26,172 bases of DNA from Candidatus Woesearchaeota archaeon (GCA_964603295.1 CAZRUG010000011.1:1-26172), one strand, 5' to 3'. Shown: positions 2,921-26,172, counted from the first letter of the stretch. Numbers and translations are program-made. The notes: a model not told the origin generated them from the letters alone.

Positions 2921-2941
2921 TAATAAAAGAAGTAATTAAAG

Positions 2942-2949
2942 TATTTAAA
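2942..2949 (-). promoter_or_regulatory. TATA box (TTTAAATA on the minus strand) for topA
   Basis: TTTAAATA lies 21 nt upstream of the topA ATG. This spacing fits an archaeal leaderless or short-leader transcript. Confidence 0.4.
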
Positions 2950-3050
2950 TAATTTTAGAATAGGGTGTTTTTATTATTTCTAAGGAGATTTTGAAGTTTT
3001 AATACCCTTTTGCTACTCAAAATAATTTATTCTTATTAGTATATTTAATT

Positions 3051-6000
3051 TTAGTTAAACGGCACAATTCCATCATTATACCATCTTTGTGCAACAATGT
3101 TGGAGACATTACCTCTATTTCCAAGTTTTGCATTTGTCTCTGTAGATAGATCAATCAGATATTGATTGAACATATTATCTATGTTTAAATCCAATCTGTT
3201 ATTATAAGTTCTAAATTGCACAATTTCCCCTTCATCATTTAATGCAATAAGTTTTCTTCCAATAATTTCTCCATTCATTTCAGCGTACAAGACTTGTTTA
3301 TTTGAATCTACAGCATTAGCTACAGTTGAAAACGTATTTCCTTTTCCAAGCCCTAAGCAACTGCCAGAGACAACATTGCCCATCTGTAAAACTTTCAAGG
3401 GATTTTTCTCAGCATAAATAGTTACTTCTCCCATTTTGGAATTATAGGTCTGATTCTCAAGACTTTTTATTGCGTTTAGTTGAGTTTTCAAATCTCGTTT
3501 GACATCTTCCCCAATATCTGCCCTATATCTAAATTCTTTATAGAAATCAAAGATTGTTTCATCAGTTACTTCGATTCCATAATGAGTAAATAATCCAATA
3601 GCTTCATCTCTGTGATGTCTAATCTGAGTTTCTTTTTCAGCAACAATATCTTCAATCCTTTCTGAACTATATGTTCGAGTAATTCCTCCAACCCATTTAG
3701 ATGTATCAATCCCTTTTGAAGCATATCTTTGTAAGGCTTCTTGATTTTTGTCATCAGTATAGGGAATTGTTGAATTTCCTGTCACGGAATCTTTAATTAG
3801 ACCAGAAAGTAATTGTTTGTTATCATTAATTTGATGGTATGTAAGAATGCCATTGATTAAATCTTCATTAATTTCTGTTACTTGAACAGGTTCTCCCACA
3901 ATATCATCAAGTGCCTTTGAACAAGAGGTTAACATGGATGAATAAATTGCTGCAGATCTTTCATTACGCAATATTAAACCTATTTTGTCCTTCCTTTCAT
4001 CTAATCTTGTTCTCAAGATTTCATTTTCTGGATGCACTCTAGTTTCTGATTCATATCTTGATATCTGATCTTTTAATTTTGCTAAACTAAGAACTTTCTT
4101 GTCTTTAATTTTCTTTCCTTGTAATTGAACAAGGCTACAATAAGTTAAAATATCTGAATCTTCTGACAATCCTTGCTGTTCAACAGATTGAACTGCTTTT
4201 AAACCCAAATTATATTCGCTAATATTTTTACCATTATGAAAGATTCTCGAAATATTTCTATAGAATTGCTCATCTAAAATAGGTTTTACCAAACAAAGAT
4301 TACTTAATACATCATATCCTGCATTTGGTTGTTCTTGAAATAATTGATTTACGTGTCTATTCAAATCTTTGCTTTCTTCAATAACTGCTAAACCAGTTTG
4401 TAATAAATAGATTCTATTGGGTGATTTTTCTTTCTCGATAGTTTTCCTAACCAAGGGAATTAGAAGTTCGCTATCAATTGAATAAGTTCTTGATGCCAAT
4501 CCTTCTATTCCTTGTCTTCTTTGACCATCAAGCCAATTAAATCTCTCAGCTGTGTTCGTGTCATCCAATGCTCTAAAATATTCTGCGATATATTCGGTTT
4601 CGCCGACTATATTATCACTGTATACAAGACTGTCCAATAATCTTGCCTGCTCTGATTTTAAAACATCACAAACTGCCGATCCCCCAATTTGTTCATTGGT
4701 TGTATCAATAAAACGTCTAAATTCTTCAAAGTTGGAAACAACGTATCCAGTCACATCATCAATTTCAGTATCACTACTTCTGAATATTTGTTCTTTTACT
4801 TTCCTCAATCTTGTATTGAATTTTTCCCCATATTCTTGATCTTCCAATTGCGTTTGAACTACTTCTGCATCAAACCCTTTCAAATAGGCTATCAAGTTTG
4901 GTAAATCTTTTCTAACATTGTGAATATAATTTGAATCACTTTGCATAGATGTTGCTTCTTCACGAACTCTTTCTGAATCTCGACTAGTTTGAAGTAGGTC
5001 ATCAAGATTATCAAAATAATCACTAAGAGCCACCAAATCTCCTTTATAATCACTCAAATTGGTTGATCTCCATGAATTGATTTCAAGATGTTTTGTGAAT
5101 AATCTATAATGTTTTCTAAAATTTGATTTTGTGTTCCCATCTAGACCAATGTTCTTAGACAATATTTCAATTAGGGACTCTCTTTGTTTGCTTGTTTCAT
5201 TTGGGTTGCTTACAAAAGCAGCCCTTAATGAGAAATATTTTTCTCTTTCAGAACCATGTTCAAGGTAATGGCTACAAATCTTTGTTAAATTTTCTTTTAC
5301 TTTTTTGTAAACTGGATTATCTATCCATTTTTCTCCTTCTTGAAATTGAGGTTTATTGAATGTGGTCGGGTTTTCTCTAACATTCTTTATTACACTCATT
5401 AGTCCAGGGATTTCTAACTGTTTCACTTCTGATAATTGTTCGTTTGTTAAGGACGTGATATATTGTGCTCCAAGAGTGTTTCCTGAACTTGAACGAATTG
5501 ATAAGAAAGGTTGCTCCCCCGAATATCCTGGTTCTCTCCAGAAATTTAATATGTTATAGGCAACTGAGTCTGCGTCTTTAAACCAAAGAGCCTTATAACC
5601 AAGCATAACTGATTCATCGGTGTGTTCTGGTGTAACTAATAGTCTATCAAATACTTTCTGCCTAATCAAATCATTAAATGAGTCTAATACCCCAGAACCA
5701 TAAATTTCTCTAATACATGTATTATTTCTAAATACATCCCATTTTTCCATATTCAATTCATTAAGGAAATCAGCCTTTTCTGATCTCAATGAATGTTCAA
5801 TTTTCAGGGTTGTTCTTTCAAGATCTCCTATCTGACGAGTAATTGAATATGGCAAATTATCATCAGATCTGACTCTTAATATTTGCTCTTTAGCCGTTGA
5901 AAGTGATTCCAATAACTCTTTTTGTTGAATCTCAATAGGTACTTGAGTTAGGTAATCTGCAAATTCTGTAAATTCATCATTTGTAGTTTTACTACCTTCA

Positions 6001-6977
6001 ATGATACCTTTATTTACAATATTTCTTAATTCGTAAGGCAATGCATCAAGCTTTTCATTAAGAGATTTAGCTTTTTCTTTAAAATCCCTTGAATCATTAT
6101 AATTAGAATATATACTTTGATTTAACCCTTCTTTGAGAACAGATAAAGCTTCTTCTACTAGATTAGTATTTCCTAAGACATCTACAACCCCTCTTGCAAA
6201 AGGATTATCTCTTTTTTTGTTTTCTTTGAGTCTTGCATCGATTCTTGACATGAAATATTTAGAGATATAATCCTCTGTTAATGATTCAAGGATTGCGGGG
6301 TCAACTACTTTTTGTTCATAATCAGTTCTAACTAATTGGCTTGTTAATTTATCATATTGGGAAAATAATCTCCTTGCGAATTTGCTAAATAATTTACCCT
6401 GAGTTTCTTCAAAATTTATACTTTCAGAGAATCCAAATTCTCTAATTTGAACTCTATGATATTGAGTATGAGAAAGATTATAAAGCGATTTAATTCTAGA
6501 ACTCAAATTTTTAATTTGTCCTTTAAACCGAAGACCTCCAAGAAATTTTTGTCTTAAACTTGATCTCAGGGATGAAAGCTTTTCAATTTGCTTAGAAACT
6601 TCTTCGTAGCTCTCAAAACCTGATTCAGATAATATTCTTTGTTTATAATTATTATTCAATTTCTTTGCATTTTCTTCCATAACCTCAATAGATGATTTTG
6701 CTTTTTTGATCTCTTCAATAATTTGTTTTGCAGATTTAATTGTCTCCCTAGAATCTAAATCCAAAGGTTCTTCCACTAGTCTCTCTAACTCAGTCGTTCT
6801 TTTATTTATATAAGCGATATTTTGCTCAGAATCTTCACTCAATCCTTCTAATTCTAATTTAATCTGTTCAGATGTTTTTCCATCAATATCTATTGAAGTA
6901 GGAACAATTGTCTGGCTCAGGCCAAACATACCCCCAAGAGTATTTGCAATTTCCTCTAAGGTTTGCAAATTACTCAT
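3051..6977 (-). CDS. Very large (1308 aa) protein of unknown function, predicted cytoplasmic
   Basis: Uninterrupted 3.9-kb ORF with AGGAGG 7 nt upstream of the ATG. No signal peptide or TM-like hydrophobic run seen. N-terminal ~160 aa are charged and coiled-coil-like. No Walker, nuclease, protease or other catalytic signature recognised by eye. Confidence 0.85.
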   Translation of the reverse strand: MSNLQTLEEIANTLGGMFGLSQTIVPTSIDIDGKTSEQIKLELEGLSEDSEQNIAYINKRTTELERLVEEPLDLDSRETIKSAKQIIEEIKKAKSSIEVMEENAKKLNNNYKQRILSESGFESYEEVSKQIEKLSSLRSSLRQKFLGGLRFKGQIKNLSSRIKSLYNLSHTQYHRVQIREFGFSESINFEETQGKLFSKFARRLFSQYDKLTSQLVRTDYEQKVVDPAILESLTEDYISKYFMSRIDARLKENKKRDNPFARGVVDVLGNTNLVEEALSVLKEGLNQSIYSNYNDSRDFKEKAKSLNEKLDALPYELRNIVNKGIIEGSKTTNDEFTEFADYLTQVPIEIQQKELLESLSTAKEQILRVRSDDNLPYSITRQIGDLERTTLKIEHSLRSEKADFLNELNMEKWDVFRNNTCIREIYGSGVLDSFNDLIRQKVFDRLLVTPEHTDESVMLGYKALWFKDADSVAYNILNFWREPGYSGEQPFLSIRSSSGNTLGAQYITSLTNEQLSEVKQLEIPGLMSVIKNVRENPTTFNKPQFQEGEKWIDNPVYKKVKENLTKICSHYLEHGSEREKYFSLRAAFVSNPNETSKQRESLIEILSKNIGLDGNTKSNFRKHYRLFTKHLEINSWRSTNLSDYKGDLVALSDYFDNLDDLLQTSRDSERVREEATSMQSDSNYIHNVRKDLPNLIAYLKGFDAEVVQTQLEDQEYGEKFNTRLRKVKEQIFRSSDTEIDDVTGYVVSNFEEFRRFIDTTNEQIGGSAVCDVLKSEQARLLDSLVYSDNIVGETEYIAEYFRALDDTNTAERFNWLDGQRRQGIEGLASRTYSIDSELLIPLVRKTIEKEKSPNRIYLLQTGLAVIEESKDLNRHVNQLFQEQPNAGYDVLSNLCLVKPILDEQFYRNISRIFHNGKNISEYNLGLKAVQSVEQQGLSEDSDILTYCSLVQLQGKKIKDKKVLSLAKLKDQISRYESETRVHPENEILRTRLDERKDKIGLILRNERSAAIYSSMLTSCSKALDDIVGEPVQVTEINEDLINGILTYHQINDNKQLLSGLIKDSVTGNSTIPYTDDKNQEALQRYASKGIDTSKWVGGITRTYSSERIEDIVAEKETQIRHHRDEAIGLFTHYGIEVTDETIFDFYKEFRYRADIGEDVKRDLKTQLNAIKSLENQTYNSKMGEVTIYAEKNPLKVLQMGNVVSGSCLGLGKGNTFSTVANAVDSNKQVLYAEMNGEIIGRKLIALNDEGEIVQFRTYNNRLDLNIDNMFNQYLIDLSTETNAKLGNRGNVSNIVAQRWYNDGIVPFN

Positions 6978-7113
6978 TTTGAGCCTCCTTTAAGAATGAT
7001 TCAACAGCATGCTCTATTAAATGAATAGTATTTCTAAATACACTTACAGCGACTTTATCTTTAACTTTCTCGTGCAATTCCTTTTCCATTGAGATACTAA
7101 CTTTGATTTTCAT
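6970..7113 (-). CDS. Ribbon-helix-helix (CopG/Arc/MetJ-like) small DNA-binding protein, 47 aa; not in the supplied ORF track
   Basis: Hand translation: MKIKVSISMEKELHEKVKDKVAVSVFRNTIHLIEHAVESFLKEAQNE. It has the typical RHH layout: an N-terminal beta strand (KIKVSISM) followed by two helices. Its stop overlaps the 1308-aa gene start by 8 nt (ATGAGTAA). A TATA box lies 25 nt upstream of its ATG. Confidence 0.6.
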   Translation of the reverse strand: MKIKVSISMEKELHEKVKDKVAVSVFRNTIHLIEHAVESFLKEAQNE

Positions 7114-7121
7114 TCTATAAC

Positions 7122-7146
7122 GTGGCAAATTTTACCACTTTATAAA
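7122..7146 (-). promoter_or_regulatory. TATA box (TTTATAAA, 7139-7146) plus a 17-nt near-palindrome (7122-7138) between TATA and the RHH start
   Basis: Minus strand reads GGATTTATAAAGTGGTAAAATTTGCCACGTTATAGA-ATG. GTGGTAAAATTTGCCAC is a dyad with one mismatched pair. It sits where an autoregulatory RHH operator would be expected. Confidence 0.4.
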
Positions 7147-7210
7147 TCCTTCGAATATTTTACTACTTCAAAGTTAATATTAATAACATTGAACTCAGAA
7201 TTCAAAAACC

Positions 7211-7825
7211 TTAAATCTCAAAAATAACTGGGGTTCTTGAAACATTTATTACAGAGGTTTTTCCAACTTTTTCTTCAATTCCTCCTGCTTCGTGAATGTG
7301 TGCGCTGATTAAAATGTCTGGTTTGAATTCTTTTAGTGCTTTTTTAACTGCTTTGCTTCCTTGAAAACCTGAGAACTCTGCTAAACCTCTGTGATGATGC
7401 ATGTGGGTTACCATGATTTTCTTTTTTATGTTTTTTAATCCTTGATGACCTTTTTTTAGTGCTTCAAATATTTCTTTGTCTGGAGTTACATTTATTACAT
7501 CTCCCCCTCCTGCCCCAAAGATTCCTAAGTCTCCTGTTTTAAATGAATATCCATGGATGTGTTGTGTGTATGGTGCATACATTTGAGCTAAGAAATCTGA
7601 AGTTGCAATTGATTCGTGGTTGCCTGGGATTAAGAGGACTTTCTTTTTTGCTTTTGCAAAAGGACCAATTAAGTTTTTTGTTGATATTTCTGTAAGTGTT
7701 AAATCTCCTGCTAAAATAACTAAATCTACATCTTCTTTTTTTGCTTTTTGTGCAAGTTTTTTAACTAAACCTGTGTCTCCGTGAATGTCTCCGATTGCAA
7801 GTATTTTTGTTTTCTTTTTTGGCAT
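7211..7825 (-). CDS. Calcineurin-like metallophosphoesterase
   Basis: Motifs GDIHGD, GDLT, GNHE, THMHH and AHIHE appear in the canonical order. Confidence 0.85.
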   Translation of the reverse strand: MPKKKTKILAIGDIHGDTGLVKKLAQKAKKEDVDLVILAGDLTLTEISTKNLIGPFAKAKKKVLLIPGNHESIATSDFLAQMYAPYTQHIHGYSFKTGDLGIFGAGGGDVINVTPDKEIFEALKKGHQGLKNIKKKIMVTHMHHHRGLAEFSGFQGSKAVKKALKEFKPDILISAHIHEAGGIEEKVGKTSVINVSRTPVIFEI

Positions 7826-10191: not shown

Positions 10192-10286
10192 GGCTTCGTA
10201 GCTCAGCCTGGTTAGAGCACCAGACTCTTAAGTAAGAAATTACATGAGGAATCTGGGTGTCGCGGGTTCAAATCCCGTCGAGGCCA
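10192..10286 (+). tRNA. tRNA-Lys (anticodon CUU) with a ~20-nt intron at the canonical 37/38 position
   Basis: Hand-folded cloverleaf. Acceptor GGCTTCG/CGAGGCC (one G-U pair), D-stem GCTC/GAGC, anticodon stem CCAGA/TCTGG, loop CTCTTAA. Intron approx. 10231-10250. T-arm GCGGG-TTCAAAT-CCCGT, discriminator A. CCA is not encoded. Confidence 0.85.
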
Positions 10287-10287
10287 T

Positions 10288-10626
10288 ATGACAATAAAGT
10301 TCTGTCCTAAATGTAAAGGGATTTTGATTCCCAATAAAGTCTGTGATAAAAAATTACTTGTTTGTGATGGTTGTGGTTTTACTAAAGAAGTTGATATTTT
10401 AAGTTTAAAATCTAAAGAAGAAATTAAATCTGAAAAAGAAAAAGGCACTGCTGTTGGTGAAGAGAAAAATGTTTTTGCAACATATAAACATAAATGTGAA
10501 AAGTGTGGTTATGACAAGTGTGAGTTTATAGATTTAGGTCCGCAGATTTCTGATGAAGATGAATTGATTTTGTTAAAGTGTGGAAAGTGTGGGCATGTTG
10601 AAAGAGTTGGAAGAAAGGTTGCTTGA
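10288..10626 (+). CDS. Divergent TFS/RpoM-like double zinc-ribbon protein (TFS paralog)
   Basis: N-terminal ribbon FCPKCKG...CDGCG. C-terminal ribbon CEKCG...CGKCGH, with the acidic stretch QISDEDE where canonical TFS has QTRSADE. The start codon begins 2 nt after the tRNA discriminator base. Confidence 0.6.
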   Translation: MTIKFCPKCKGILIPNKVCDKKLLVCDGCGFTKEVDILSLKSKEEIKSEKEKGTAVGEEKNVFATYKHKCEKCGYDKCEFIDLGPQISDEDELILLKCGKCGHVERVGRKVA

Positions 10627-10649: not shown

Positions 10650-10958
10650 TTATCCATATTCTTTCCAAGTTTCTCCGCACTTTGTGCATTGAAAGAATTT
10701 TGTTTCTGCTTCATCTGAAGCTCGAGTTTGAATTGTCCAGAAATATGCTTTGTCGTTTTTACACTTGTTGCAGTTCTCTGTTGTGATTGGTCGAGTGTCA
10801 AATTGTTTGTCTTTCATAACTACAACATCTTTTGACTTGTCAATTTTTTCAGAAGATTTCATTCCTTCAGAATCTTTTGAAGAATAGTTACATCTTGGGC
10901 AACCAAAATTCTTTGTTTTCTTTATTAATATTGCGCCACATTTAGGACAAAATTGCAT
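10650..10958 (-). CDS. tfs: Transcription factor S (transcript cleavage factor)
   Basis: MQFCPKCG...CPRCN N-terminal ribbon. C-terminal ribbon CNKCK...QTRASDEAET...CTKCGETW carries the acidic hairpin. 102 aa. Confidence 0.85.
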   Translation of the reverse strand: MQFCPKCGAILIKKTKNFGCPRCNYSSKDSEGMKSSEKIDKSKDVVVMKDKQFDTRPITTENCNKCKNDKAYFWTIQTRASDEAETKFFQCTKCGETWKEYG

Positions 10959-11805: not shown

Positions 11806-12186
11806 ATGGCAGATATATTTGACAACAAAATTTTATGCAGTAAATGCAACAAAGAAATGCAAAAAGCAAAGATTGCAAAAAAAGGATTTTTGTTTCGGGC
11901 TGTAATTTGTTCGCAATGTAATCAAAGAATAATTCATCCTGCTGATGAGCAAGAATACTTAAGATTTAGGGATTTGCAAAATAAAGAGTTTAAAGTTAAA
12001 ATGCGTTTAGTGGGAAATAGTTATGCTGTTTCAATTCCAAGAGAGATAATTAATTTTATGCAAGAGCAGGAAAAGATTTTTAATGACATGGTGCGATTGT
12101 GTTTTGAGGATTTTGGCAAATTAAGTTTAAATTTTGAAACCCAAAAACAATTAAATAAACAAAACTCAAAGAAAAAAGATGACTAA
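11806..12186 (+). CDS. Zinc-ribbon plus SpoVT/AbrB (MazE-like swapped-hairpin) domain protein
   Basis: CSKCN...CSQCN ribbon. [22 protein letters not shown] then matches the GNSxAVxIP signature of MazE/AbrB domains. Its stop overlaps the Cdc48 start by 8 nt (ATGACTAA). Confidence 0.7.
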
Positions 12187-14488
12187 AGACTTTCAATTAA
12201 AAGTTGTAGAAGCACAGCAAGATGATGCATATAAAGGCATTGCAAGAATTGATTCTGAAATAATGAGAGAACTTGGTGTTCGAAGAGGAGATATAATTAC
12301 AATTAAAGGAAATAGATTGACTGTTGCAATTGTTGATAGGGCTTATCCGGCAGATGTTGGAGAAGGAATTATTCGAATTGATGGTATTTTAAGAAAAAAT
12401 GCAAAAGCTGGTTTAGGAGAAATGGTTGCTGTTTCAAAATCAGAGGCTAAAGAAGCGAAAAAAATTGTAATTGCTCCTGCTCAAAAAGGGTTGGTAGTAC
12501 AAGGTGATCCAGAAAGTTTGAAAAAAGGTTTATTAGGAAGACCATTGGTTAAGGGAGATGTTTTTGTTTTGGGAGGTGTACAAAGAAGAAGAGATTTATT
12601 TTCAGAAATGGGTCTTGGAGATATGTTTGGGGAAGAAATGGGAAATATTTTTGGTAATCTTGGAGGAGGAATTGCACAGATTAAATTTGCTGTTGTAAGT
12701 TCTAGTCCTGGAGGAGCAATAATGGTAACTGAAAATACAGAAGTTTCATTAAATCCAAAAGCTGTTGAAACTATTGAAGAAAATATTCCTACAATTAATT
12801 ATGAGGATATTGGTGGTTTAGAAGAAGAAATTAAGAAAATTAGAGAGATGGTTGAGATTCCAATTAAACATCCTGAAATTTTTCAAAAACTTGGTGTAGA
12901 ACCTCCTAAGGGAGTTTTGTTGCACGGACCTCCTGGAACAGGTAAAACACTTTTAGCAGAAGCTGTTGCAAATGAATCAGATGCTCATTTTATTTTATTA
13001 AATGGTCCTGAAATTATGTCAAAATTTTATGGGGAATCTGAGAAAAAGATTAGAGATATTTTTGAAGAAGCTGAAAAAAATGCACCTGCAATTATTTTTA
13101 TAGACGAGATTGATGCAATTACTCCTAAGAGAGAGGATGTTTCTGGAGAAGTTGAAAGAAGAGTTGTTTCACAGTTATTAACAATGATGGATGGTTTAAA
13201 GGCAAGAGGAAAAGTTATTGTTATTGGTGCAACAAATCGTATTGGTGGAATTGATCCTGCACTTAGAAGACCTGGTCGTTTTGATAGAGAAATTGAGGTT
13301 GGTGTTCCAAGTAAATCAGGTAGATTGCAAATTTTAAAGATTCATAGTCGAGGAATGCCTTTAGCAAAAGATGTTGATTTAGAAAAACTTGCTGGATTAA
13401 CACATGGTTTTGTTGGTGCTGATTTAGAATCATTAACTAAAGAGTCTGCAATGAATGTTTTAAGGAAAATGTTGCCTAAACTTCAATTAGATATTGAGGA
13501 ACCAATTTCTCCAGAGATTTTAGAAAAGCTTTTAGTTAATCACTCTGATTTTACAGATGCTTTAAAGATTGTGCGTCCATCTGCAATGCGAGAGGTTTTA
13601 GTTGAAACTCCAAATGTTGAATGGAAAGATGTTGGGGGGTTGGATAGTGTTAAACAAGAATTGCAAGAAGCTGTTGAATGGCCAATGAAACATCCAGAAA
13701 GTTTTAAGAGAATGGGAATTCGGCCTTCTCGAGGGCTCTTACTTTATGGTCCTCCTGGAACAGGTAAAACTCTTTTAGCTAAAGCTGTTGCAAAAGAATC
13801 TGAAGCAAATTTTATTCAAGTTAAAGGACCTTCATTGTTAAGTATGTGGGTTGGTAAATCTGAAGAAGGTGTAAGAAAGATTTTTGAAAGAGCAAGACAG
13901 GTTTCTCCATGTATTGTTTTCTTTGATGAAATTGATTCATTAGCAGGTAAGCGAGGAGGAGAAGGAGGAACTAAAGTTACTGAAAGAGTCTTAAATCAAA
14001 TGCTTGCTGAAATGGATGGATTAGAAGATTTAAATGAAGTTTTAGTTATTGCTGCAACAAATAGGCCAGATATGTTGGATACTGCGATTTTAAGGCCGGG
14101 TAGATTTGATAGAATTTTATTAGTTAATGCTCCTGAAGAAGAAGGAAGAATTAGTATTTTGAAAATTCATACAAAAGAAATGCCAATTGGCGACGGAAAA
14201 AAGTTATTTACTGAAAAAGAAAAATTAAAATTCTTAAATGAAATTGCAAAACAAACTCATGGCTATACTGGTGCTGATTTGGAGTCTTTAGTAAGGGAAG
14301 CTGCAATGTTGGCATTAAGAGAATCAATTAAAGCAAAACAAGTAACTAAAAAACATTTTGAAGAAGCATTGAAAAAGATTAAACCAAGTATTAGTGAAAA
14401 TACAATTAAGATTTATAAAAAAATTGAGGACAATTATCTTAAATCTGCTAAAGCTGCAGTGCCAACTGAGGCTGGTTATTTTGGATAG
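12179..14488 (+). CDS. cdc48: Cdc48/VAT/p97-type AAA+ ATPase, paralog 1
   Basis: VAT-N-like N-domain. Two AAA modules, each with GPPGTGKT, a DEID/DEID-like Walker B and RPGRFDR. Pore loops KFYG and MWVG. Ends in GYFG. Confidence 0.95.
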
Positions 14489-14508: not shown

Positions 14509-14527
14509 GTATACATTAGGTGTATAC
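14509..14527 (+). promoter_or_regulatory. Operator-like paired motif GTATAC-N7-GTATAC
   Basis: GTGTATAC-ATTAG-GTGTATAC. The two palindromic boxes are 13 nt centre to centre, the same geometry as 11748-11768. It sits between the TATA box and the GGAG/ATG of the sHsp-like gene. Confidence 0.5.
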
Positions 14528-14537
14528 GGAGAATAAA

Positions 14538-14903
14538 ATGGGATTTTTTGATAATGATCCATTTGAAGATATAATTAAAGAATTTTTTAGTGGAAGGTCT
14601 GGAAGTAATGTTAGTTCACGAACTTTTAGAAATAATATTGAAGAATCAAGTAATTTTGTCCAAAGTGATAAAAATGTTTATTTTGTTTTAGATTTATCTG
14701 GAAAACAAAGTGTTAATGTTGAGGTTAAAGATGAATTAGTTAGAAATGAATATGGTGAACAAGTTCATACTGGAAAAAAAGCCCTTGTAATTAAAAGTTC
14801 AGAGGGAGATGTTTTACAATATGCTTTGCCAAAAAAAATTAAATCAAAGAATTTCCATTGGAATTTTAAGAATGGAATTCTTGAAGTGAAGTTTAAAAAA
14901 TGA
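14538..14903 (+). CDS. Small heat-shock protein (Hsp20/alpha-crystallin-like)
   Basis: I prefer the ATG at 14538, with GGAG 7 nt upstream, over the track's GTG at 14520. NVYFVLDLSG...VNVEVKD...YALPKKIKSKNF...NGILEVKFKK follows the alpha-crystallin domain pattern. 4-nt ATGA overlap with the next gene. Confidence 0.6.
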   Translation: MGFFDNDPFEDIIKEFFSGRSGSNVSSRTFRNNIEESSNFVQSDKNVYFVLDLSGKQSVNVEVKDELVRNEYGEQVHTGKKALVIKSSEGDVLQYALPKKIKSKNFHWNFKNGILEVKFKK

Positions 14904-17167
14904 AAGAAAAAATTTTATTAGAAGTTGTTGAAGCACATAGAAGTTATGTTGATAAAAATGTTGTAACAATTGCAAATTCAGATATGGAGGGTTTTGATTT
15001 GTCTTCTGGAGATATTGTTAAAATTGGTTCTGAAAAAGAATTGTATCTTAGAGTAATTAGGGTTGATGATATTTATTCTGGAAAAATTGGAATTAATGGT
15101 GAAACAAGATCTGTTTTAGGTGTTTCTGTAGGAGAGAAAATTTCTGTTCAGAAAGTTGATAAGGTTCCTGTTTTAAAATCAGTTACTCTTTCTATTTTGC
15201 CTCATGAAAGTTTTAGTACAGAACAATTAAAACAATATAATGCGCAATTAAAATCATATGGAAAGTTTAAGGAATTGTTAATGAATTCGCCCTTGTCTAT
15301 TGGACAAAAAATTACTGTTCCCACAAATGTTGGCAAATTAACTTATTCTGTTGTTGGTGTCATGCCTAAGAAAAATCCAGTTGGTATTGTTGATTTTAAT
15401 ACAAATATTGATGTTTCAGATGATGTTGGACAAGGTTCTGGTGTGAATGTTTATTATGAAGATATTGGTGGTTTAGAAGAAGAAATTGAAAAAATTAGAG
15501 AAATGGTTGAGTTTCCAATGAAGCACCCTGATTTATTTCAAAGACTAGGGATTAGTGCTCCAAAAGGTGTTTTGTTAACTGGTCCTCCTGGAACAGGTAA
15601 AACTCTTTTAGCCAAAGCTGTTGCAACAGAGACAGATGCAAAATTTATTTCAATTGCTGGTCCTGAAATTATGTCAAAATATCATGGTGGTTCTGAGGAG
15701 AATTTAAGAAGTAAATTTGAAGAAGCTGAAAAAAATGCACCTGCAATTGTTTTTATTGATGAAATTGATGCTATTGCTCCAAAAAGAGGAGAAAGCCATG
15801 ACCAAGCTGAAAAAAGAGTTGTAACTCAATTATTAACTTTAATGGATGGTTTAAAATCCAGGGGACAAGTTGTTGTTATGGCTGCAACTAATAGACCTGA
15901 TGATTTAGATGAAGCATTGAGAAGACCTGGTCGTTTTGATAGAGAAATTAAAATTAATCCTCCTTCTGAAAAAGGTAGAAAAGAGATTTTACAAATTCAT
16001 ACACGAAGCATGCCTTTAGAAGATAGAGATAATTTAATTAAAGATATTGCAAAAAATACAATTGGTTATACTGGTGCTGATTTAGAAGTTTTATGTAAGG
16101 AAGCTGCTTTGCGTTCTGTTAAACCTTTTTATAAATCATTAGTTAAATTTGGAGAAGAAGCTTCTGAGGAAGACATTGAAAAAAGAGAGGAAGAAAAGAA
16201 AAAATTAATTAGTAATATTAAGGTTACAAAAGAACATTTTGTTGAGGCAATGAGGCAAGTTGAGCCTTCTGCAATGAGAGAAGTTTTAATTAATAAACCA
16301 AATGTTGAATGGAAAGATGTTGGTGGTTTAGATAAAGCTAAAGAAAAACTTAGGGAATTAGTTGAATTACCTTTGTTAAGGCCTGATTTATATTCTATGG
16401 CTGGAATTAAACCTTCAAAAGGTGTTTTGTTAACTGGTCCTCCTGGAACAGGTAAAACTCTTTTAGCTAAAGCTGTTGCAACAGAATCTAATGCTAATTT
16501 TATTTCTGTTAAAGGTCCTGAATTAATTTCAAAATGGGTTGGGGAGTCAGAAAAACATGTTAGAGAAATTTTCAAAAAAGCAAGACAAGTTGCACCTACA
16601 ATTATTTTCTTTGATGAATTTGATTCAATTTCTAAATTAAGGGGATCTTCAATGAGTGATTCTACTGAAAGAATTGTTAATCAATTATTAACTGAACTTG
16701 ATGGTGTTGAAGAACTTGAAAAAGTTATGATTGTTGCAGCAACAAATAGAAAAGATTTGATTGACCCTGCTTTGTTAAGACCCGGTAGAATTGATTCAAT
16801 TGTTGAATTAGAAATTCCTGATAAAATAACAAGAGAAGAAATTTTTAAGGTTCATACAAAAAATATGCCTTTAGCAAAAGATGTTAGGTTATCTGATTAT
16901 ATTGGAAAAACAGAAGGTTGGACAGGTGCTGATATAGAGGCTGTTGCAAGAAATGCAGGAATACATGCTATTAAAAGAATTTACTTAAAGAAAAATAATC
17001 AAAATCTTGAAATTACAAAACAAGATTTTAATTCTGCATTACAAGAAGTTGCTAAATCTTCTGAAAGAGAAATTAAGGAAGATAAGCCTGTTATTAAAAA
17101 AGAAAAATGTGGAGAAAAAATTAGTAAAAAGAAAAATACTTCACAAAAGAATTCTAAAAAGAAATAG
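14900..17167 (+). CDS. Cdc48/VAT-type AAA+ ATPase, paralog 2, with a Lys-rich C-terminal tail
   Basis: N-domain plus two AAA modules (GPPGTGKT x2, DEID/DEFD, RPGRFDR/RPGRIDS). Pore loops KYHG and KWVG. The C-terminus is KISKKKNTSQKNSKKK. Confidence 0.95.
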   Translation: MKEKILLEVVEAHRSYVDKNVVTIANSDMEGFDLSSGDIVKIGSEKELYLRVIRVDDIYSGKIGINGETRSVLGVSVGEKISVQKVDKVPVLKSVTLSILPHESFSTEQLKQYNAQLKSYGKFKELLMNSPLSIGQKITVPTNVGKLTYSVVGVMPKKNPVGIVDFNTNIDVSDDVGQGSGVNVYYEDIGGLEEEIEKIREMVEFPMKHPDLFQRLGISAPKGVLLTGPPGTGKTLLAKAVATETDAKFISIAGPEIMSKYHGGSEENLRSKFEEAEKNAPAIVFIDEIDAIAPKRGESHDQAEKRVVTQLLTLMDGLKSRGQVVVMAATNRPDDLDEALRRPGRFDREIKINPPSEKGRKEILQIHTRSMPLEDRDNLIKDIAKNTIGYTGADLEVLCKEAALRSVKPFYKSLVKFGEEASEEDIEKREEEKKKLISNIKVTKEHFVEAMRQVEPSAMREVLINKPNVEWKDVGGLDKAKEKLRELVELPLLRPDLYSMAGIKPSKGVLLTGPPGTGKTLLAKAVATESNANFISVKGPELISKWVGESEKHVREIFKKARQVAPTIIFFDEFDSISKLRGSSMSDSTERIVNQLLTELDGVEELEKVMIVAATNRKDLIDPALLRPGRIDSIVELEIPDKITREEIFKVHTKNMPLAKDVRLSDYIGKTEGWTGADIEAVARNAGIHAIKRIYLKKNNQNLEITKQDFNSALQEVAKSSEREIKEDKPVIKKEKCGEKISKKKNTSQKNSKKK

Positions 17168-22882: not shown

Positions 22883-25357
22883 TTAAAACCCATCTAATGT
22901 TTTTTGATTTGAGTTGTTTGTTAAATCTTTTACATTAATTTTAAATGTTTGAAGAATGTTTTCAATTGCGGGAAGAATTTGTTTTTCTAAATAATATTTT
23001 ATGTCATAATCTTCTTTTTCATCTGGTAGTTTTACTCTGTCTCTGACAAGAGGGTTTTTTTCTTTTGATTCTGCAATATAATATTCAACTAATCCTCCTG
23101 AAGAAATTGGTATTTCTTTTTCTTTCATTTTTTGTGCAGCAACTACGTGCGGTGTTGTGGCTTTGTATTCTGAAAGGGGTTTTTTTAATTGAGTTTTTAT
23201 AACAAGTTTTGATTTATCAATATCTCTTTTTTTTACTTTGCTAACAATTTCCTTTACATATTCAACTGCTTTTTTTTCATTTCCTTGTTTTAATACTAAT
23301 TCTAAGACTTTGTTTTGAACTTCCCTTGCAAGCATACACCAATCTCTTCTAACTGTTTCAAAACCTCTTATTTTTAGTTTGTCGTTTTTATCAATTAATG
23401 CATATTTCTTTTTTGCACCAAAATCTCCTGAACGTTTTGTGACCCAAATTCCTCTTTTGAAAAATCCTTCAAGTTCTAAATGCATAACTCCTGGTAATTC
23501 TGAGTTTAATTTTTCTAAGAACTCTTTGATTTCTTTTTCTGTTTTTTCTTTTTTAGTAAAACCTACACTATCTGTATCCCCGAATATGACTTGGTATCCT
23601 GCGTCTTTTATTTTTTGAATTGTTTCTTTATTGAATTGTCTTACAAAACCAAGTATTGATGCTGAAGCTTCGATTGAATAATATCTTGCTCCAAAAAATC
23701 CAATGTATCCGTGGGCTGAGGCTGATAAAACTTTGAATGCATTACTTCGTGCAAGTGTTATTGGGTTTGGGTTTTTTTTGTATTCTTGTTTGAATTTTTT
23801 TCTTAATTGAAAAATTTCTTTTAATAATTCTGGAAAAAATCCTGGTTTTTTTGTAAAATAAAAATTTTGTTTTTTTCCATTAAGTTCTACTTCAGGTGAT
23901 TTGTAAGAATCTTTTTTCTTTTTTTCTAATAAGGTTGATTTTGAAATATTGTATGTGATTATTATGCTTGTGTGCATTGAAGTGAAATCAAAGATGACAA
24001 TGTCTTTGTAAAGTCCAGGTGTTGGTTCTAAGACAAATGCTCCTTCAACTCCACCTGAATTTCTTCGTGAATTTATTTCATTATAGCCTGGTCTTTTTTC
24101 AGGAATTTCATTAAATCTTTCTAAATTGTGCAAGATGTATGATTCTGTGTATTTTGATAAACCTGCTCTTGAAATTTCAAATGTTGGTTCTTGAATTGTT
24201 TTTGTGAATTCTAATAAGTCTGGCCAGAATTTTTCAAATAAATCTATGACAAGTTTTGAATCATGTAAATTATATTCATAGAATTTTTCTAAATCATTTT
24301 GTGTTAGTTTGCTTGAGGGTTTGAATTCAAAGTCTTTTTTTTCATTTTTGAGAAATTCTTTTGATACTTCATCTAATGTTAATGTTTCAGATTTCATGTA
24401 TTGTGCATATGCTGTTCTAATAAATTTTAGCAAGTCAATGTGTGTGGTTCCAAATATTTTTGCAGTCATTGTTCCTGCCCCTCTAGAAAACCTTGGTTGA
24501 GAGCCATCAATTCCTAAAGGAATTTTTACATTATGGTGTTCTGCTCTTGCTTTTATATAAGGTAAATCAAAACCATCTGAATTATAACCAATTAAAAAGT
24601 CTGGAGAGATTTCTTTTACCTCTTGAACAAATTTTTCAATTAGCTCTGCCTCGTCTTTTACATATTCAACATATTTTGGTTGTTTGTTTTTTAGTTTTTT
24701 CCAAGTGAGGACTTTTTTTACTTTGTCTGAATAAAATGAAATCATTAATATTTGGCCTTCACCAATTCCTAGTTCATCTGTTTCAATATCATAACCTAAT
24801 GCTTTTGGTTTGAATTTTTCTTCTTTAAGTTCTTTTGAAGATTCTAAGTTAATGCATATACTTGTTTCAATTGCAGAATCAATGCCACCTAATTCTTGGG
24901 AATTGTTTAAGACTTGTCCTTGGATTTCATACCAATGTAATGGTTTTATTTTTTTTTCAATTATATAATGTGTTGTATAACCTAAGTCATATCCTCTTCT
25001 TTTTTCTATTTCTGGAAAGTCTAATCTATCTGCAATGTCATGGAGGTCTTTGTAATTTGTTGCATAAATTTTTAGTGCTTTGACTTTTTTTCCAAGGAAT
25101 TTTTTGTCTTTGACTTCAACTTTTTCAACTTTTGTTTTTCTGCCTTTTAGTTCAAGTTTTATTTTTTTTATTTCATCAACTAATTTATTAATTTCTTTAG
25201 AGTTTATTTTGTCTTTGAGAATTGCCCATAGATAAACATCGCATGAATCAATAACACAGATTTTTTTGCCTTTTTCATCTCTGCCAATTATTTTTGCATA
25301 GTTTCTGCCTTGAAAATCAAAGTAGTCATAGTCAATTGGGATGAATTGGGTTTTCAT
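22883..25357 (-). CDS. polB: Family B DNA polymerase with 3'-5' exonuclease domain
   Basis: Exo I (YDIETDE), Exo II (YNSDGFDLPY), Exo III (YEYNLHDSKLV). Motif A DFTSMHTSII, motif B KVLSASAHGY, motif C FGDTDS, and KKKYA. Confidence 0.95.
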   Translation of the reverse strand: MKTQFIPIDYDYFDFQGRNYAKIIGRDEKGKKICVIDSCDVYLWAILKDKINSKEINKLVDEIKKIKLELKGRKTKVEKVEVKDKKFLGKKVKALKIYATNYKDLHDIADRLDFPEIEKRRGYDLGYTTHYIIEKKIKPLHWYEIQGQVLNNSQELGGIDSAIETSICINLESSKELKEEKFKPKALGYDIETDELGIGEGQILMISFYSDKVKKVLTWKKLKNKQPKYVEYVKDEAELIEKFVQEVKEISPDFLIGYNSDGFDLPYIKARAEHHNVKIPLGIDGSQPRFSRGAGTMTAKIFGTTHIDLLKFIRTAYAQYMKSETLTLDEVSKEFLKNEKKDFEFKPSSKLTQNDLEKFYEYNLHDSKLVIDLFEKFWPDLLEFTKTIQEPTFEISRAGLSKYTESYILHNLERFNEIPEKRPGYNEINSRRNSGGVEGAFVLEPTPGLYKDIVIFDFTSMHTSIIITYNISKSTLLEKKKKDSYKSPEVELNGKKQNFYFTKKPGFFPELLKEIFQLRKKFKQEYKKNPNPITLARSNAFKVLSASAHGYIGFFGARYYSIEASASILGFVRQFNKETIQKIKDAGYQVIFGDTDSVGFTKKEKTEKEIKEFLEKLNSELPGVMHLELEGFFKRGIWVTKRSGDFGAKKKYALIDKNDKLKIRGFETVRRDWCMLAREVQNKVLELVLKQGNEKKAVEYVKEIVSKVKKRDIDKSKLVIKTQLKKPLSEYKATTPHVVAAQKMKEKEIPISSGGLVEYYIAESKEKNPLVRDRVKLPDEKEDYDIKYYLEKQILPAIENILQTFKINVKDLTNNSNQKTLDGF

Positions 25358-26172
25358 AGTGAATCTAAGGGGGATTTAATATTTGATAAATCTTTTGTAG
25401 AAACATGAGTATAGATTTCTGTTGTTTTTAGGTCTGAATGTCCTAGGAGTTTTTGAATGTGCCTTATATCTGTTCCTTGTTCTAATAAATGTGTGGCAAA
25501 ACTATGTCTTAGCATGTGGGGGGTAACTTTGATTCCAACTCTTTGGCCTGCCAAGGCTAAGACTTTTTGGACTGATTTTTTTGTGTATTTGTTGGTTCGG
25601 CCTTCAAAAACATATTCTGTTTTGAAAATATTATTGCTGTAATATTTTAATAAATCTAACTTTAATGAATCTGAAATAAGTGTGATTCTGTCCTTTTTTC
25701 CTTTGCTTTTTTTGACATTTAAAATTCCTCTTTCAAAATCAATATCTTTTCTTTTGAGATTTATTATTTCTTGTAATCTTAGGCCTGAAGAGTAAAGTAG
25801 TTTGATTATTAGTTTGTGTTTTAGGTTGTCTGTTAAGTCAATCATTTGTTTTATTTTTTCTTTAGAGATTACTTTTGGAAGCTGTTTTTCTTTTTTCTTT
25901 ATAGGGACATCTTCAAATGAAAATGGTTTTTGTAGTACCTCTCTGAAAAAGAAGCTTATTGAGGCATATTGTAACCTTGAAGTATTTGTTTGAACATCTT
26001 GAGTTAATAAATAAGACTTAACACTCTCTTTTGATAGATTAAGTCTACTTTTCTCAATAAATTCTAAAAATCTTTTAGTGTTGTATAAATAGGATTTTAT
26101 TGTTTGCTGAGAAAATCCTCGAAGAATGCACCTTTCTTTGAGTTGTTGGAGATAATTATCGGGGTAATCCAT
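25354..26172 (-). CDS. xerA: Tyrosine recombinase, XerA/XerC/D-like
   Basis: Catalytic pattern: SGLRLQE (Arg), HMLRHSFATHLL (HxxR), LLGHSDLKTTEIYTHV (His, Tyr). The start codon sits exactly at the window edge. Its stop overlaps the polB ATG (ATGA). Confidence 0.8.
   Translation of the reverse strand: MDYPDNYLQQLKERCILRGFSQQTIKSYLYNTKRFLEFIEKSRLNLSKESVKSYLLTQDVQTNTSRLQYASISFFFREVLQKPFSFEDVPIKKKEKQLPKVISKEKIKQMIDLTDNLKHKLIIKLLYSSGLRLQEIINLKRKDIDFERGILNVKKSKGKKDRITLISDSLKLDLLKYYSNNIFKTEYVFEGRTNKYTKKSVQKVLALAGQRVGIKVTPHMLRHSFATHLLEQGTDIRHIQKLLGHSDLKTTEIYTHVSTKDLSNIKSPLDSL

What the first reader, a model, noticed from the sequence alone, without database searches (positions are those of the whole stretch)
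3051..7146. RHH gene coupled to a 1308-aa orphan protein: candidate uncharacterised two-gene module
A 47-aa ribbon-helix-helix ORF (6970-7113, minus strand), too short for the ORF track, overlaps the start of the 1308-aa ORF by 8 nt (ATGAGTAA). The large gene's AGGAGG lies inside the RHH coding sequence, so the two are almost certainly co-transcribed and translationally coupled. The promoter has TTTATAAA 25 nt upstream of the RHH ATG, and a 17-nt dyad (GTGGTAAAATTTGCCAC) fills the gap, which is the classic layout of an autoregulated RHH operator. The large protein has no signal peptide, TM segment, P-loop or catalytic motif I can recognise. It is mostly charged and helical. Its last ~130 aa form a distinct patch (MGNVVSGSCLGLGKGNTF...NKQVLYAEMNGEIIGRKLIALNDEGEIVQFRTYNN) that looks like a compact conserved domain. 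Small RHH regulators coupled to a large effector are typical of toxin-antitoxin, abortive-infection and defence-type modules. Nothing here matches a named system, and the pair sits between unrelated housekeeping genes.
Basis: partly seen in the sequence, partly recalled or inferred. Interest (0 to 1): 0.7.

Follow-up and report, generated by a model that had tools for sequence, protein, structure and literature searches.

The report
Repressor-gated accessory giant-protein gene cassette
A small-genome (DPANN-type) archaeon carries an inserted two-gene cassette in which a tiny DNA-binding repressor probably controls its own expression and that of an overlapping 1308-residue protein of unknown function, assembled from two widespread but unannotated protein modules.

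Summary
A 47-aa ribbon-helix-helix (RHH) gene (6970-7113, minus) overlaps a 1308-aa gene (3051-6977) by ATGAGTAA. An archaeal BRE/TATA promoter lies 25 nt upstream, and a dyad fills the gap.

The pair, the overlap and the operator recur in seven lineages. In one further lineage both genes are decayed. In relatives, the flanking phosphoesterase and topoisomerase I genes are usually adjacent, and none of 80 loci has the pair. The pair is therefore a 4.3-kb accessory insertion.

The large protein is unannotated but not an orphan: 1655 cluster representatives match it. It joins two independent modules.
- An all-alpha N-terminal region. Elsewhere this is fused to other C-termini (HD, HAD, an unknown "type B").
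- A terminal ~125-aa domain with an invariant cysteine. It is found in many bacteria and DPANN archaea and has a weak GNAT-like predicted fold without the acetyl-CoA motif.

The same RHH/operator head also precedes unrelated cargo genes.

Best reading: a CopG-like autorepressor gating a modular accessory effector. A conflict or defence role is plausible but unproven. It is not a canonical GNAT/RHH toxin-antitoxin pair, and nothing matches a known defence system.

The parts
2921..7210 (-). Inserted accessory segment (about 4.3 kb) between the phosphoesterase gene (7211-7825) and the topoisomerase I gene (479-2920)
   Evidence: Of 80 metagenomic loci with a 57-78% identical phosphoesterase, about 45 show topoisomerase I directly downstream. 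The gap is 50-70 nt in nine of them. None has the RHH or the large gene. No terminal repeats were found in the window copy.
7157..7167 (-). Upstream extra half-site AGTAGTAAAAT, 28 nt from the promoter-proximal copy AGTGGTAAAAT (7129-7139)
   Evidence: These are the only two matches in the 26-kb window, even with one mismatch allowed. A similar AGTAGT/AGTGGT element sits at the same place in relatives.
7139..7153 (-). Archaeal promoter: BRE-like CGAAGGA followed by TATA box TTTATAAA (7139-7146)
   Evidence: CGAAA[CG]ATTTAAATA is conserved in L001, L003, L007, L008, L015 and L017. The 25-nt distance to the ATG implies a leaderless or near-leaderless mRNA. That step is inference from the usual archaeal TATA-to-start spacing.
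7122..7138 (-). Operator-like dyad GTGGTAA-AAT-TTGCCAC (6/7 arm match) between the TATA box and the start codon
   Evidence: Relatives have GTAGTAA-N3-TTACTAC at the same place. The window differs on both arms in a compensated way. Binding was not tested.
6970..7113 (-). 47-aa ribbon-helix-helix (CopG/Arc-type) gene
   Evidence: Purifying selection is shown.
6984..6989 (-). AGGAGG Shine-Dalgarno-like element for the large gene, inside the RHH coding sequence
   Evidence: Relatives have AAGGAGG or AAGAGG at the same place.
6970..6977 (-). ATGAGTAA start/stop overlap (translational coupling signal)
   Evidence: The same 8-nt overlap occurs in L001, L003, L007, L008, L013 and L017.
3051..6977 (-). 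1308-aa cytoplasmic modular protein
4368..6977 (-). N-terminal all-alpha region (aa 1-870), shared by both C-terminal variants
   Evidence: AlphaFold2 model with pLDDT 77.7, all helices except one hairpin. There is no specific fold match: only generic solenoids, probability <=0.25. Alignment.
5178..6470 (-). Conserved N-core (aa ~170-600). Includes the most invariant stretch, LGYKALWFKD..YNxLNFWRExGxSGExPFLS (aa 459-493)
   Evidence: It occurs on its own in 58 of 160 proteins examined, up to 1898 aa long. Some of these end in an HD or HAD domain.
3054..4367 (-). Type A C-terminal module (aa 871-1308): a helical part plus a terminal alpha/beta domain
   Evidence: Model with pLDDT 78.3. This region is replaced by an unrelated ~480-aa 'type B' module in P0009, P0010, P0012-P0016 and L013.
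3054..3428 (-). Terminal ~125-aa alpha/beta domain (aa 1184-1308) with a weak GNAT-like predicted fold
   Evidence: 73-96% identical among family members. Found in DPANN archaea and at least ten bacterial phyla. It is terminal in 99 of 102 proteins. Foldseek hits are almost all GNAT acetyltransferases, but the best E-value is 0.03.
3357..3359 (-). Codon of Cys1207 in QMGNVVSGSCLG, the cysteine that is invariant across archaeal and bacterial copies of the domain
   Evidence: The motif G[NEDQ]x3-7C[LIVM] is kept in 99 of 102 proteins.

Best explanation
The locus is an accessory two-gene cassette inserted between two housekeeping genes of a DPANN-type archaeon.

Gene 1 encodes a minimal 47-aa CopG/Arc-type RHH protein. 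I infer that it binds as a dimer, or as higher oligomers on the extra half-sites, to the dyad between the TATA box and the transcription start. There it would block TBP/TFB/RNA polymerase and repress its own leaderless bicistronic mRNA.

Gene 2 is translated from the same mRNA through an internal AGGAGG and the ATGAGTAA overlap, so its level follows that of the repressor and stays low.

Its product is a cytoplasmic modular protein. An ~870-aa all-alpha platform is fused to an exchangeable C-terminal head. In the window the head is a helical region ending in a ~125-aa alpha/beta domain with an invariant cysteine and a GNAT-like fold. I take this head to be the active, probably enzymatic, part, and the platform to be a recognition or regulatory scaffold.

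The most likely biological role is an optional, tightly gated effector of a conflict type (defence, addiction or host interaction).

What is shown: gene structure, conservation, insertion and modularity. What is inferred: repressor binding, coupling, enzymatic activity and the conflict role.
For: Conserved unit and operator:
- The RHH, the 8-nt overlap and the BRE/TATA-dyad layout recur across lineages whose large proteins are only 35-80% identical. They occur with both C-terminal types.
- The operator change is compensated on both arms.
- The RHH is under purifying selection.
- RHH family membership rests.

Accessory nature:
- Topoisomerase I follows the phosphoesterase in about 45 of 80 related loci, often within 50-70 nt. 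None of the 80 has the cassette.
- Flanking genes differ in every cassette-bearing locus.
- In L005, L006 and L021 the RHH is truncated and the large gene is split into three frames.
- In L001, L008 and L017 the cassette is bracketed by direct repeats that travel with it.

Modularity:
- Type A and type B C-termini sit on a shared N-region.
- N-core relatives carry HD or HAD C-terminal domains.
- Of 160 proteins, 12 have both modules, 58 have the N-core only and 90 have the C-domain only.
- The C-domain is the most conserved part.
- Its only consistent structural matches are GNAT-fold enzymes.

Portable switch: the same RHH/operator head precedes unrelated cargo in L014 and L015.
Against: - No biochemical function is established.
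- The GNAT-like match is weak (best E 0.03, TM 0.54 to a 141-aa target). The region around the invariant cysteine is modelled with pLDDT below 50. The Q/RxxGxG/A acetyl-CoA loop is absent from the sequence.
- PADLOC, Pfam, NCBIfam, PHROGs and PDB sequence searches give nothing for the large protein.
- There is no defence island, integrase, transposase or immunity-like neighbour next to the cassette, and no conserved neighbour across loci.
- Three family members lack the RHH (L004, L010, L012). Other C-domain proteins also lack it, so the repressor is dispensable for the protein family.
- All sequences come from metagenome assemblies. The mosaic P0010 could be an assembly chimera.
Confidence: 0.5

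Rival explanations
1. A canonical type II toxin-antitoxin pair of the GNAT/RHH class (TacAT, AtaRT, KacAT). The large protein would be an acetyltransferase toxin that blocks translation by acetylating aminoacyl-tRNA, and the RHH protein would be its antitoxin and co-repressor.
For: - The gene order is right: the RHH gene is upstream and overlaps its partner.
- The terminal domain's only consistent fold matches are GNAT enzymes.
- The class is well described (PMC6698736, PMC9177977, found).
- The pair is accessory and decays as a pair.
Against: - The RHH is 47 aa, a bare fold. It has no C-terminal toxin-binding extension and no DUF1778 match.
- The partner is 1308 aa rather than about 170 aa.
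- No Acetyltransf Pfam hit and no Q/RxxGxG/A motif.
- Type B proteins lack the GNAT-like domain yet keep the same RHH.
- The same RHH head serves unrelated cargo.
- Proteins with only the C-domain have no RHH neighbour.
Confidence: 0.07
2. An ordinary, non-conflict cellular protein, for example a helical scaffold with a small modifying or ligand-binding domain. It would have its own gene-specific RHH regulator that responds to some physiological signal. Its patchy occurrence would reflect the general gene flux of DPANN genomes.
For: - The neighbourhoods are housekeeping, without defence or mobile-element genes.
- The C-domain is widespread as a solo gene in many free-living bacteria.
- No defence model matches.
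- No relatives were found in viral contigs.
- Small archaeal RHH regulators co-transcribed with a cellular target gene are known, as in cdrS-ftsZ2 (PMC7439475).
Against: - The cassette is a clean insertion into a conserved gene junction and is absent from all 80 related loci.
- C-terminal heads are swapped on one platform, and the gene looks mosaic.
- Both genes are decayed together in one lineage.
- Cassette-bound flanking repeats occur in one clade.
- The combination of both modules is rare: 12 of 160 proteins.
Confidence: 0.3
3. A symbiosis effector. DPANN archaea live attached to host cells. The helical platform could target a host component after transfer through the cell-cell contact, and the C-terminal head could modify it.
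For: - The two-module architecture is restricted to low-GC DPANN-type sequences.
- Variable enzymatic heads on a common platform resemble effector repertoires.
- The N-terminal half diverges faster (53-75% identity) than the C-terminal half (81-97%) between the window and P0002.
Against: - No signal peptide, TM segment or recognisable secretion or trafficking domain.
- No secretion genes nearby.
- The separate modules also occur in free-living bacteria.
Confidence: 0.1

Closest known systems
CopG-RepB operon of plasmid pMV158 (45-aa RHH autorepressor co-transcribed with a larger downstream gene)
   Same: A minimal RHH of about 45 aa with no extra domain, encoded first in a bicistronic operon. 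It is predicted to bind a pseudo-symmetric element within its own core promoter and so set the level of the downstream protein (general knowledge; PMC5717011, listed).
   Different: The promoter here is archaeal BRE/TATA, and the operator lies between the TATA box and the start. The cargo is a 1308-aa unknown protein, not a replication initiator. The locus is a chromosomal insertion, not a plasmid. Sequence similarity to CopG is not significant.
GNAT/RHH type II toxin-antitoxin systems (TacAT, AtaRT, KacAT; DUF1778 antitoxins)
   Same: An RHH gene upstream of and overlapping a gene whose product has a GNAT-like domain. Likely autoregulation, and an accessory distribution (PMC6698736, PMC9177977).
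   Different: The antitoxin-type C-terminal extension is missing. The 'toxin' is eight times larger, and the GNAT-like part is only its last ~125 aa. The acetyl-CoA motif is absent. The RHH also accompanies proteins without this domain.
CdrS-FtsZ2 (archaeal small RHH co-transcribed with its target gene)
   Same: A small archaeal RHH regulator encoded immediately upstream of a co-transcribed gene (PMC7439475).
   Different: According to that paper CdrS pairs with ftsZ2 and was not detected in DPANN. Here the partner is unrelated and the pair is an insertion.
Polymorphic toxin / modular effector architectures (conserved N-terminal region, exchangeable C-terminal enzymatic domain)
   Same: One conserved N-terminal platform carries alternative C-terminal heads: type A, type B, HD and HAD. 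There are signs of recombination at the junction.
   Different: No secretion or trafficking domain, no downstream immunity gene and no cassette array of spare C-termini.

Membership tests
Ribbon-helix-helix (CopG/Arc/MetJ) transcriptional repressors | Sequence membership: a beta-alpha-alpha domain of about 45 aa matching RHH profiles | tested here: met
   Direct Pfam hits are below threshold: RHH_3 in 5/5 members (best E 0.0012) and RHH_1 in 2/5. PHROG Arc-like repressor gives E 0.0029. A profile search links it at E 1e-8 to 1e-18 to proteins carrying PF01402 or named CopG/Arc/MetJ regulators. hhalign to CopG alone is not significant.
Ribbon-helix-helix (CopG/Arc/MetJ) transcriptional repressors | An inverted or tandem repeat operator in its own promoter | tested here: met
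   A conserved dyad lies between the TATA box and the ATG, with extra half-sites and a compensated change on both arms.
Ribbon-helix-helix (CopG/Arc/MetJ) transcriptional repressors | Dimeric binding to that operator and repression | not testable with these tools
   Needs EMSA or footprinting and a reporter assay.
GNAT/RHH type II toxin-antitoxin (TacAT/AtaRT/KacAT) | Antitoxin with an N-terminal RHH plus a C-terminal toxin-neutralising region (DUF1778, about 90 aa) | tested here: not met
   The protein is 47 aa and the RHH fold uses all of it. No DUF1778 hit.
GNAT/RHH type II toxin-antitoxin (TacAT/AtaRT/KacAT) | Stand-alone GNAT toxin of about 160-180 aa with the acetyl-CoA binding motif A | tested here: not met
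   The protein is 1308 aa. No Acetyltransf family hit even at E<=10 on the isolated domain. The beta4-alpha3 loop reads NNRLDLN, with no Q/RxxGxG/A.
GNAT/RHH type II toxin-antitoxin (TacAT/AtaRT/KacAT) | Antitoxin gene upstream of, and overlapping or adjacent to, the toxin gene | tested here: met
   8-nt overlap.
GNAT/RHH type II toxin-antitoxin (TacAT/AtaRT/KacAT) | Toxicity of the large protein and its neutralisation by the RHH protein | not testable with these tools
   Needs expression experiments.
GNAT (acyl-CoA N-acyltransferase) superfamily | The GNAT alpha/beta fold | tested here: inconclusive
   Top PDB and BFVD matches are almost all GNAT enzymes: RimI 7n1l (E 0.03, probability 1.0, TM 0.54), RibT, AAC and GCN5, plus phage N-acetyltransferases. 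No hit reaches E<=0.001, and part of the domain is modelled with low confidence.
Known anti-phage defence systems (PADLOC-DB v2) | A match of any component to a defence-system model | tested here: not met
   No hit for the window proteins, for type B, or for bacterial relatives.
Polymorphic toxin systems | A conserved N-terminal region with exchangeable C-terminal domains | tested here: met
Polymorphic toxin systems | A secretion or trafficking domain and a cognate immunity gene immediately downstream | tested here: not met
   No signal peptide, TM segment or known trafficking domain. No conserved downstream or upstream gene across 44 loci.
CdrS cell-division RHH regulators | Synteny with ftsZ2 | tested here: not met
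   The partner is the 1308-aa protein. The source paper reports CdrS as undetected in DPANN.

The most novel reading that the evidence does not exclude
The N-terminal all-alpha platform with swappable enzymatic heads (the cysteine-bearing GNAT-like domain, 'type B', HD, HAD), placed under a portable RHH-operator switch, defines a previously undescribed class of mobile, repressor-gated effector or immunity cassettes in DPANN archaea. The terminal cysteine domain would then be a new enzyme family shared with many bacteria.
Probability: 0.25. Interest if true: 0.7.

Novelty: new variant of a known kind. Interest (0 to 1): 0.5.

Why it matters
- DPANN archaea have tiny genomes, so a 4.3-kb optional cassette is a large investment. 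Their defence and host-interaction genes are almost unknown.
- The cassette gives a compact, testable example of archaeal promoter-occlusion control by a minimal RHH.
- It also draws attention to two large families with no annotation. One is an all-alpha platform and the other a ~125-aa cysteine-bearing domain found in at least ten bacterial phyla. Their function could be approached through this simple regulated pair.
- If the head domains are enzymatic effectors, the family would add a new modular architecture to archaeal conflict systems.

Tried and rejected
- **Sequence searches of the large protein.** Pfam, NCBIfam, PADLOC, PHROGs and PDB sequences were searched with single sequences and with profiles of the N-region, the type A C-region and the type B C-region. 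Only noise came back: spectrin, coiled-coil designs and BcsR at E>0.05.
- **Fold search of the N-terminal model.** Only generic HEAT/ARM solenoids, TM about 0.1 and probability <=0.25. No fold was assigned.
- **Type A versus type B terminal domains.** I asked whether their last 150 aa are homologous, since both contain a cysteine. hhalign gave E 0.21, so the idea is rejected.
- **PcfJ-like relationship.** Two low-probability BFVD hits suggested it. There is no Pfam support, and the literature search returned only pCFJ plasmids. Dropped.
- **HEPN-like Rx6H at aa 445-452.** The arginine is not conserved (K or N in P0011 and P0016). Rejected.
- **Terminal repeats or target-site duplication around the window cassette.** None found. 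The repeat that flanks the cassette in L001 and L008 is absent from the window.
- **Small ORFs upstream of the RHH in L001, L007 and L008.** Their similarity is only the translated promoter DNA, so they are spurious. No tRNA or Rfam family lies there.
- **Viral origin.** No relatives in IMG/VR contigs.
- **Bacterial-type promoter and terminator scan.** Uninformative for an archaeon.
- **CdrS identity.** Rejected on synteny and taxonomy.

Full report
**Setting.** The window has about 30% G+C. It encodes topoisomerase I, a calcineurin-like phosphoesterase, CTP synthase, two CDC48-type ATPases, a family B DNA polymerase and zinc-ribbon proteins. The closest relatives of the genes studied come from Nanoarchaeota and Woesearchaeota metagenome bins. 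The source is therefore a DPANN-type archaeon.

**The observation.**
- The 1308-aa ORF lies at 3051-6977 on the minus strand.
- A 47-aa ORF starts at the ATG at 7113 and ends at 6970.
- The two overlap by ATGAGTAA at 6970-6977.
- AGGAGG lies at 6984-6989, 6 nt before the large gene's ATG.
- TTTATAAA lies at 7139-7146, preceded by a BRE-like CGAAGGA, with 25 nt between it and the ATG.
- The dyad GTGGTAAAATTTGCCAC lies at 7122-7138. Its arms match in 6 of 7 positions rather than perfectly.
- The large protein has no hydrophobic segment (maximum 19-residue Kyte-Doolittle mean 0.96) and no Walker A motif. It is 29% charged.

**The small gene is real and is an RHH.**
- Five orthologues are 77-91% identical.
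- Most codon differences are synonymous. Window versus L003 gives 27 synonymous and 9 non-synonymous changes in 47 codons.
- Direct profile hits are weak but consistent. Pfam RHH_3 matches all five members (best E 0.0012), RHH_1 matches two, and the PHROG 'Arc-like repressor' gives E 0.0029.
- A profile search found 82 relatives of 39-75 aa. Several carry PF01402 or are named CopG/Arc/MetJ regulators by their sources.
- At 47 aa the protein is only the beta-alpha-alpha fold, like CopG. It has no extension that could contact a partner protein.

**The regulatory layout is conserved.**
- The orthologous promoters align as CGAAA[CG]ATTTAAATA, then GTAGTAA-N3-TTACTAC, then 7-8 nt, then ATG.
- The window has GTGG..CCAC where the others have GTAG..CTAC, so the change is compensated on both arms.
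- A further AGT[AG]GTA element lies about 30 nt upstream of the TATA box. In the window, AGTRGTAAAAT occurs only at 7129-7139 and 7157-7167.
- L003, L008 and L017 have one more GTAGT just before the ATG.
- Because the dyad lies between the TATA box and the expected start of a leaderless mRNA, it is DNA and not transcript. A bound RHH would occlude the pre-initiation complex. This is the usual way archaeal repressors act, but it is inference here.

**The pair is a conserved unit, but the RHH is not obligatory.**
- The same 47-aa gene with the same 8-nt overlap precedes the large gene in L001, L008/L009 and L017 (type A C-terminus). It also does so in L003, L007 and L013 (type B C-terminus, down to 35% identity).
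- It is absent in L004, L010 and L012.
- In L005, L006 and L021 the RHH has lost its beta-strand (34 aa) and the large gene is broken into three frames.
- The same RHH/operator head also precedes unrelated cargo. In L015/L016 this is a 944-aa protein with GHKL-like motifs and a sub-threshold HATPase_c match. In L014 it is a 220-aa plus a 311-aa protein.
- The RHH therefore behaves as a portable switch.

**The cassette is an insertion.**
- A metagenome scan with the neighbouring phosphoesterase returned 80 loci at 57-78% identity.
- About 45 of these have enough downstream DNA, and in them topoisomerase I follows the phosphoesterase. In nine loci the gap is only 50-70 nt.
- None of the 80 contains the RHH or the large gene. 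In the window the two genes are separated by 4.29 kb.
- Flanking genes differ in every other cassette-bearing locus.
- I found no terminal repeats in the window copy.
- In the L001, L008 and L017 clade the cassette is bracketed by direct copies of a 60-110-nt repeat, although the surrounding genes differ.

**The large protein.**
- No curated library or PDB sequence search gives a significant hit.
- The first word-indexed search found 16 relatives. Their alignment shows a shared N-terminal region of about 870 aa and two unrelated C-terminal modules, type A (the window) and type B.
- An exhaustive profile search found 1655 cluster representatives at E<=1e-3.
- I reclassified 160 of them offline. 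12 have both the N-core and the C-terminal domain, all from low-G+C organisms. 58 have only the N-core and reach 1898 aa. 90 have only the C-domain, with a median length of 951 aa.
- Some N-core proteins end in an HD domain (P0125, P0131) or a HAD hydrolase domain (P0151).
- The C-domain occurs in DPANN archaea. It also occurs in Omnitrophica, Armatimonadota, Chloroflexia, Acidobacteriota, Verrucomicrobiota, Kiritimatiellae, Actinomycetes, Deltaproteobacteria, Gracilibacteria and Aminicenantales.
- It is terminal in 99 of 102 proteins and keeps one cysteine motif in 99 of 102.
- These proteins have no RHH neighbour and no other conserved neighbour.
- Every source name for these proteins is 'hypothetical'.

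**Structure.**
- The N-terminal 880 aa are predicted to be all-alpha (pLDDT 77.7). They have no specific structural match.
- In the C-terminal model (pLDDT 78.3), helices are followed by a small alpha/beta domain.
- In both PDB and BFVD the matches to that domain are almost all GNAT-fold acyltransferases. The best is E 0.03, probability 1.0, TM 0.54.
- This is a consistent lead, not a significant result. The loop around Cys1207 is modelled poorly, and the acetyl-CoA loop motif is absent.
- Residues invariant from bacteria to archaea are E1189, C1207, N1214, K1227, Y1231, R1241, D1263 and the WYxDGI tail.

**Signs of modular exchange.**
- P0010 is about 90% identical to type A P0002 over roughly the first 600 alignment columns. 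It is 100% identical to type B P0009 from column 721 onward.
- The window protein is 53-75% identical to P0002 in the N-terminal half and 81-97% identical in the C-terminal half.
- Both patterns fit recombination. An assembly chimera cannot be excluded for P0010.

**Interpretation.**
- The well-supported part is an RHH-gated, translationally coupled, accessory two-gene cassette whose cargo is a modular protein with an exchangeable head.
- A conflict-type role fits the insertion, the patchy and decaying distribution, the tight control and the head swapping.
- That role has no direct support. There is no defence-system match, no defence island, no immunity gene and no viral relatives.
- A canonical GNAT/RHH toxin-antitoxin pair fails two defining tests: the antitoxin extension and the GNAT motif and size.
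- An ordinary cellular function remains a serious rival.

**Novelty.** The regulatory part resembles the CopG-RepB type of operon and is ordinary in kind. The cargo belongs to large, unannotated families, and the two-module architecture under an RHH switch has not, to my knowledge, been described. I rate it a new variant of a known kind, of moderate interest.

Noticed in passing
L001 5390-5430, 5567-5607 and 10030-10127; L008 5467-5615 and 10046-10092; also L017, L002, L018, L019: In one clade of close relatives the cassette is bracketed by direct copies of a 60-110-nt repeat. Its core reads ..CTATATGTGCG[AT]AGCAC.. and AATGGAAATTTTATTGTATTTAACATCGGGC. The flanking genes differ, so the repeat travels with the cassette. 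It is absent from the window, and no tRNA or Rfam family matches it. It could be an att-like or MITE-like boundary.
   Followed up: partly
L014 6001-7738; L015 2682-5650 (and L016): The same RHH family, with the same BRE/TATA-dyad promoter and a start/stop overlap, precedes unrelated cargo. In L015 this is a 944-aa protein with GHKL-like DNGSG and GQFGEGLK motifs (HATPase_c E 0.0013, below cut-off). In L014 it is a homologous 220-aa protein followed by a 311-aa protein. L015 also has a MazE/ParE pair 350 nt upstream.
   Followed up: partly
L079 9600-14099; also L052, L058, L078, L094, L123, L127: The phosphoesterase-topoisomerase I junction is variable in relatives. Most loci have a gap of 50-70 nt, several have 0.5-1.5 kb, and L079 has 4.5 kb of other genes. 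The junction may be a recurrent insertion site.
   Followed up: no
P0009, P0010, P0012-P0016; L003 8566-10044; L013: The alternative 'type B' C-terminal module is about 480 aa, with conserved stretches FEIDCVAEEA, PNLSYGY, VVDGTKH and ARYPDAYQGYLNQ.
   Followed up: partly
P0010 versus P0002 and P0009 (alignment A1): P0010 is a sharp mosaic. It is about 90% identical to a type A protein over the first ~600 columns and 100% identical to a type B protein afterwards. This is either natural recombination within the gene or a metagenome assembly chimera.
   Followed up: partly
window 10192-10286 (+): A 95-nt tRNA gene (Rfam 57.7 bits) for which ARAGORN cannot name the anticodon. It is probably an intron-containing archaeal tRNA. 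It abuts the start of the zinc-ribbon gene at 10288.
   Followed up: no
window 10288-10626 (+) and 10650-10958 (-): Two convergent small genes encode proteins with several CxxC pairs (zinc-ribbon, TFS/RpoM-like by eye). They were seen only in the ORF translations.
   Followed up: no
window 12179-14488, 14520-14903 and 14900-17167 (+): Two tandem CDC48/VCP-type double-AAA ATPase paralogues are separated by a 127-aa gene that overlaps the second paralogue's start.
   Followed up: no
window 25354-26172 (-): A tyrosine-recombinase-like ORF (ends ...HSDLKTTEIYTHV) overlaps the start of the family B DNA polymerase gene by 4 nt and runs off the window end. It was not examined.
   Followed up: no
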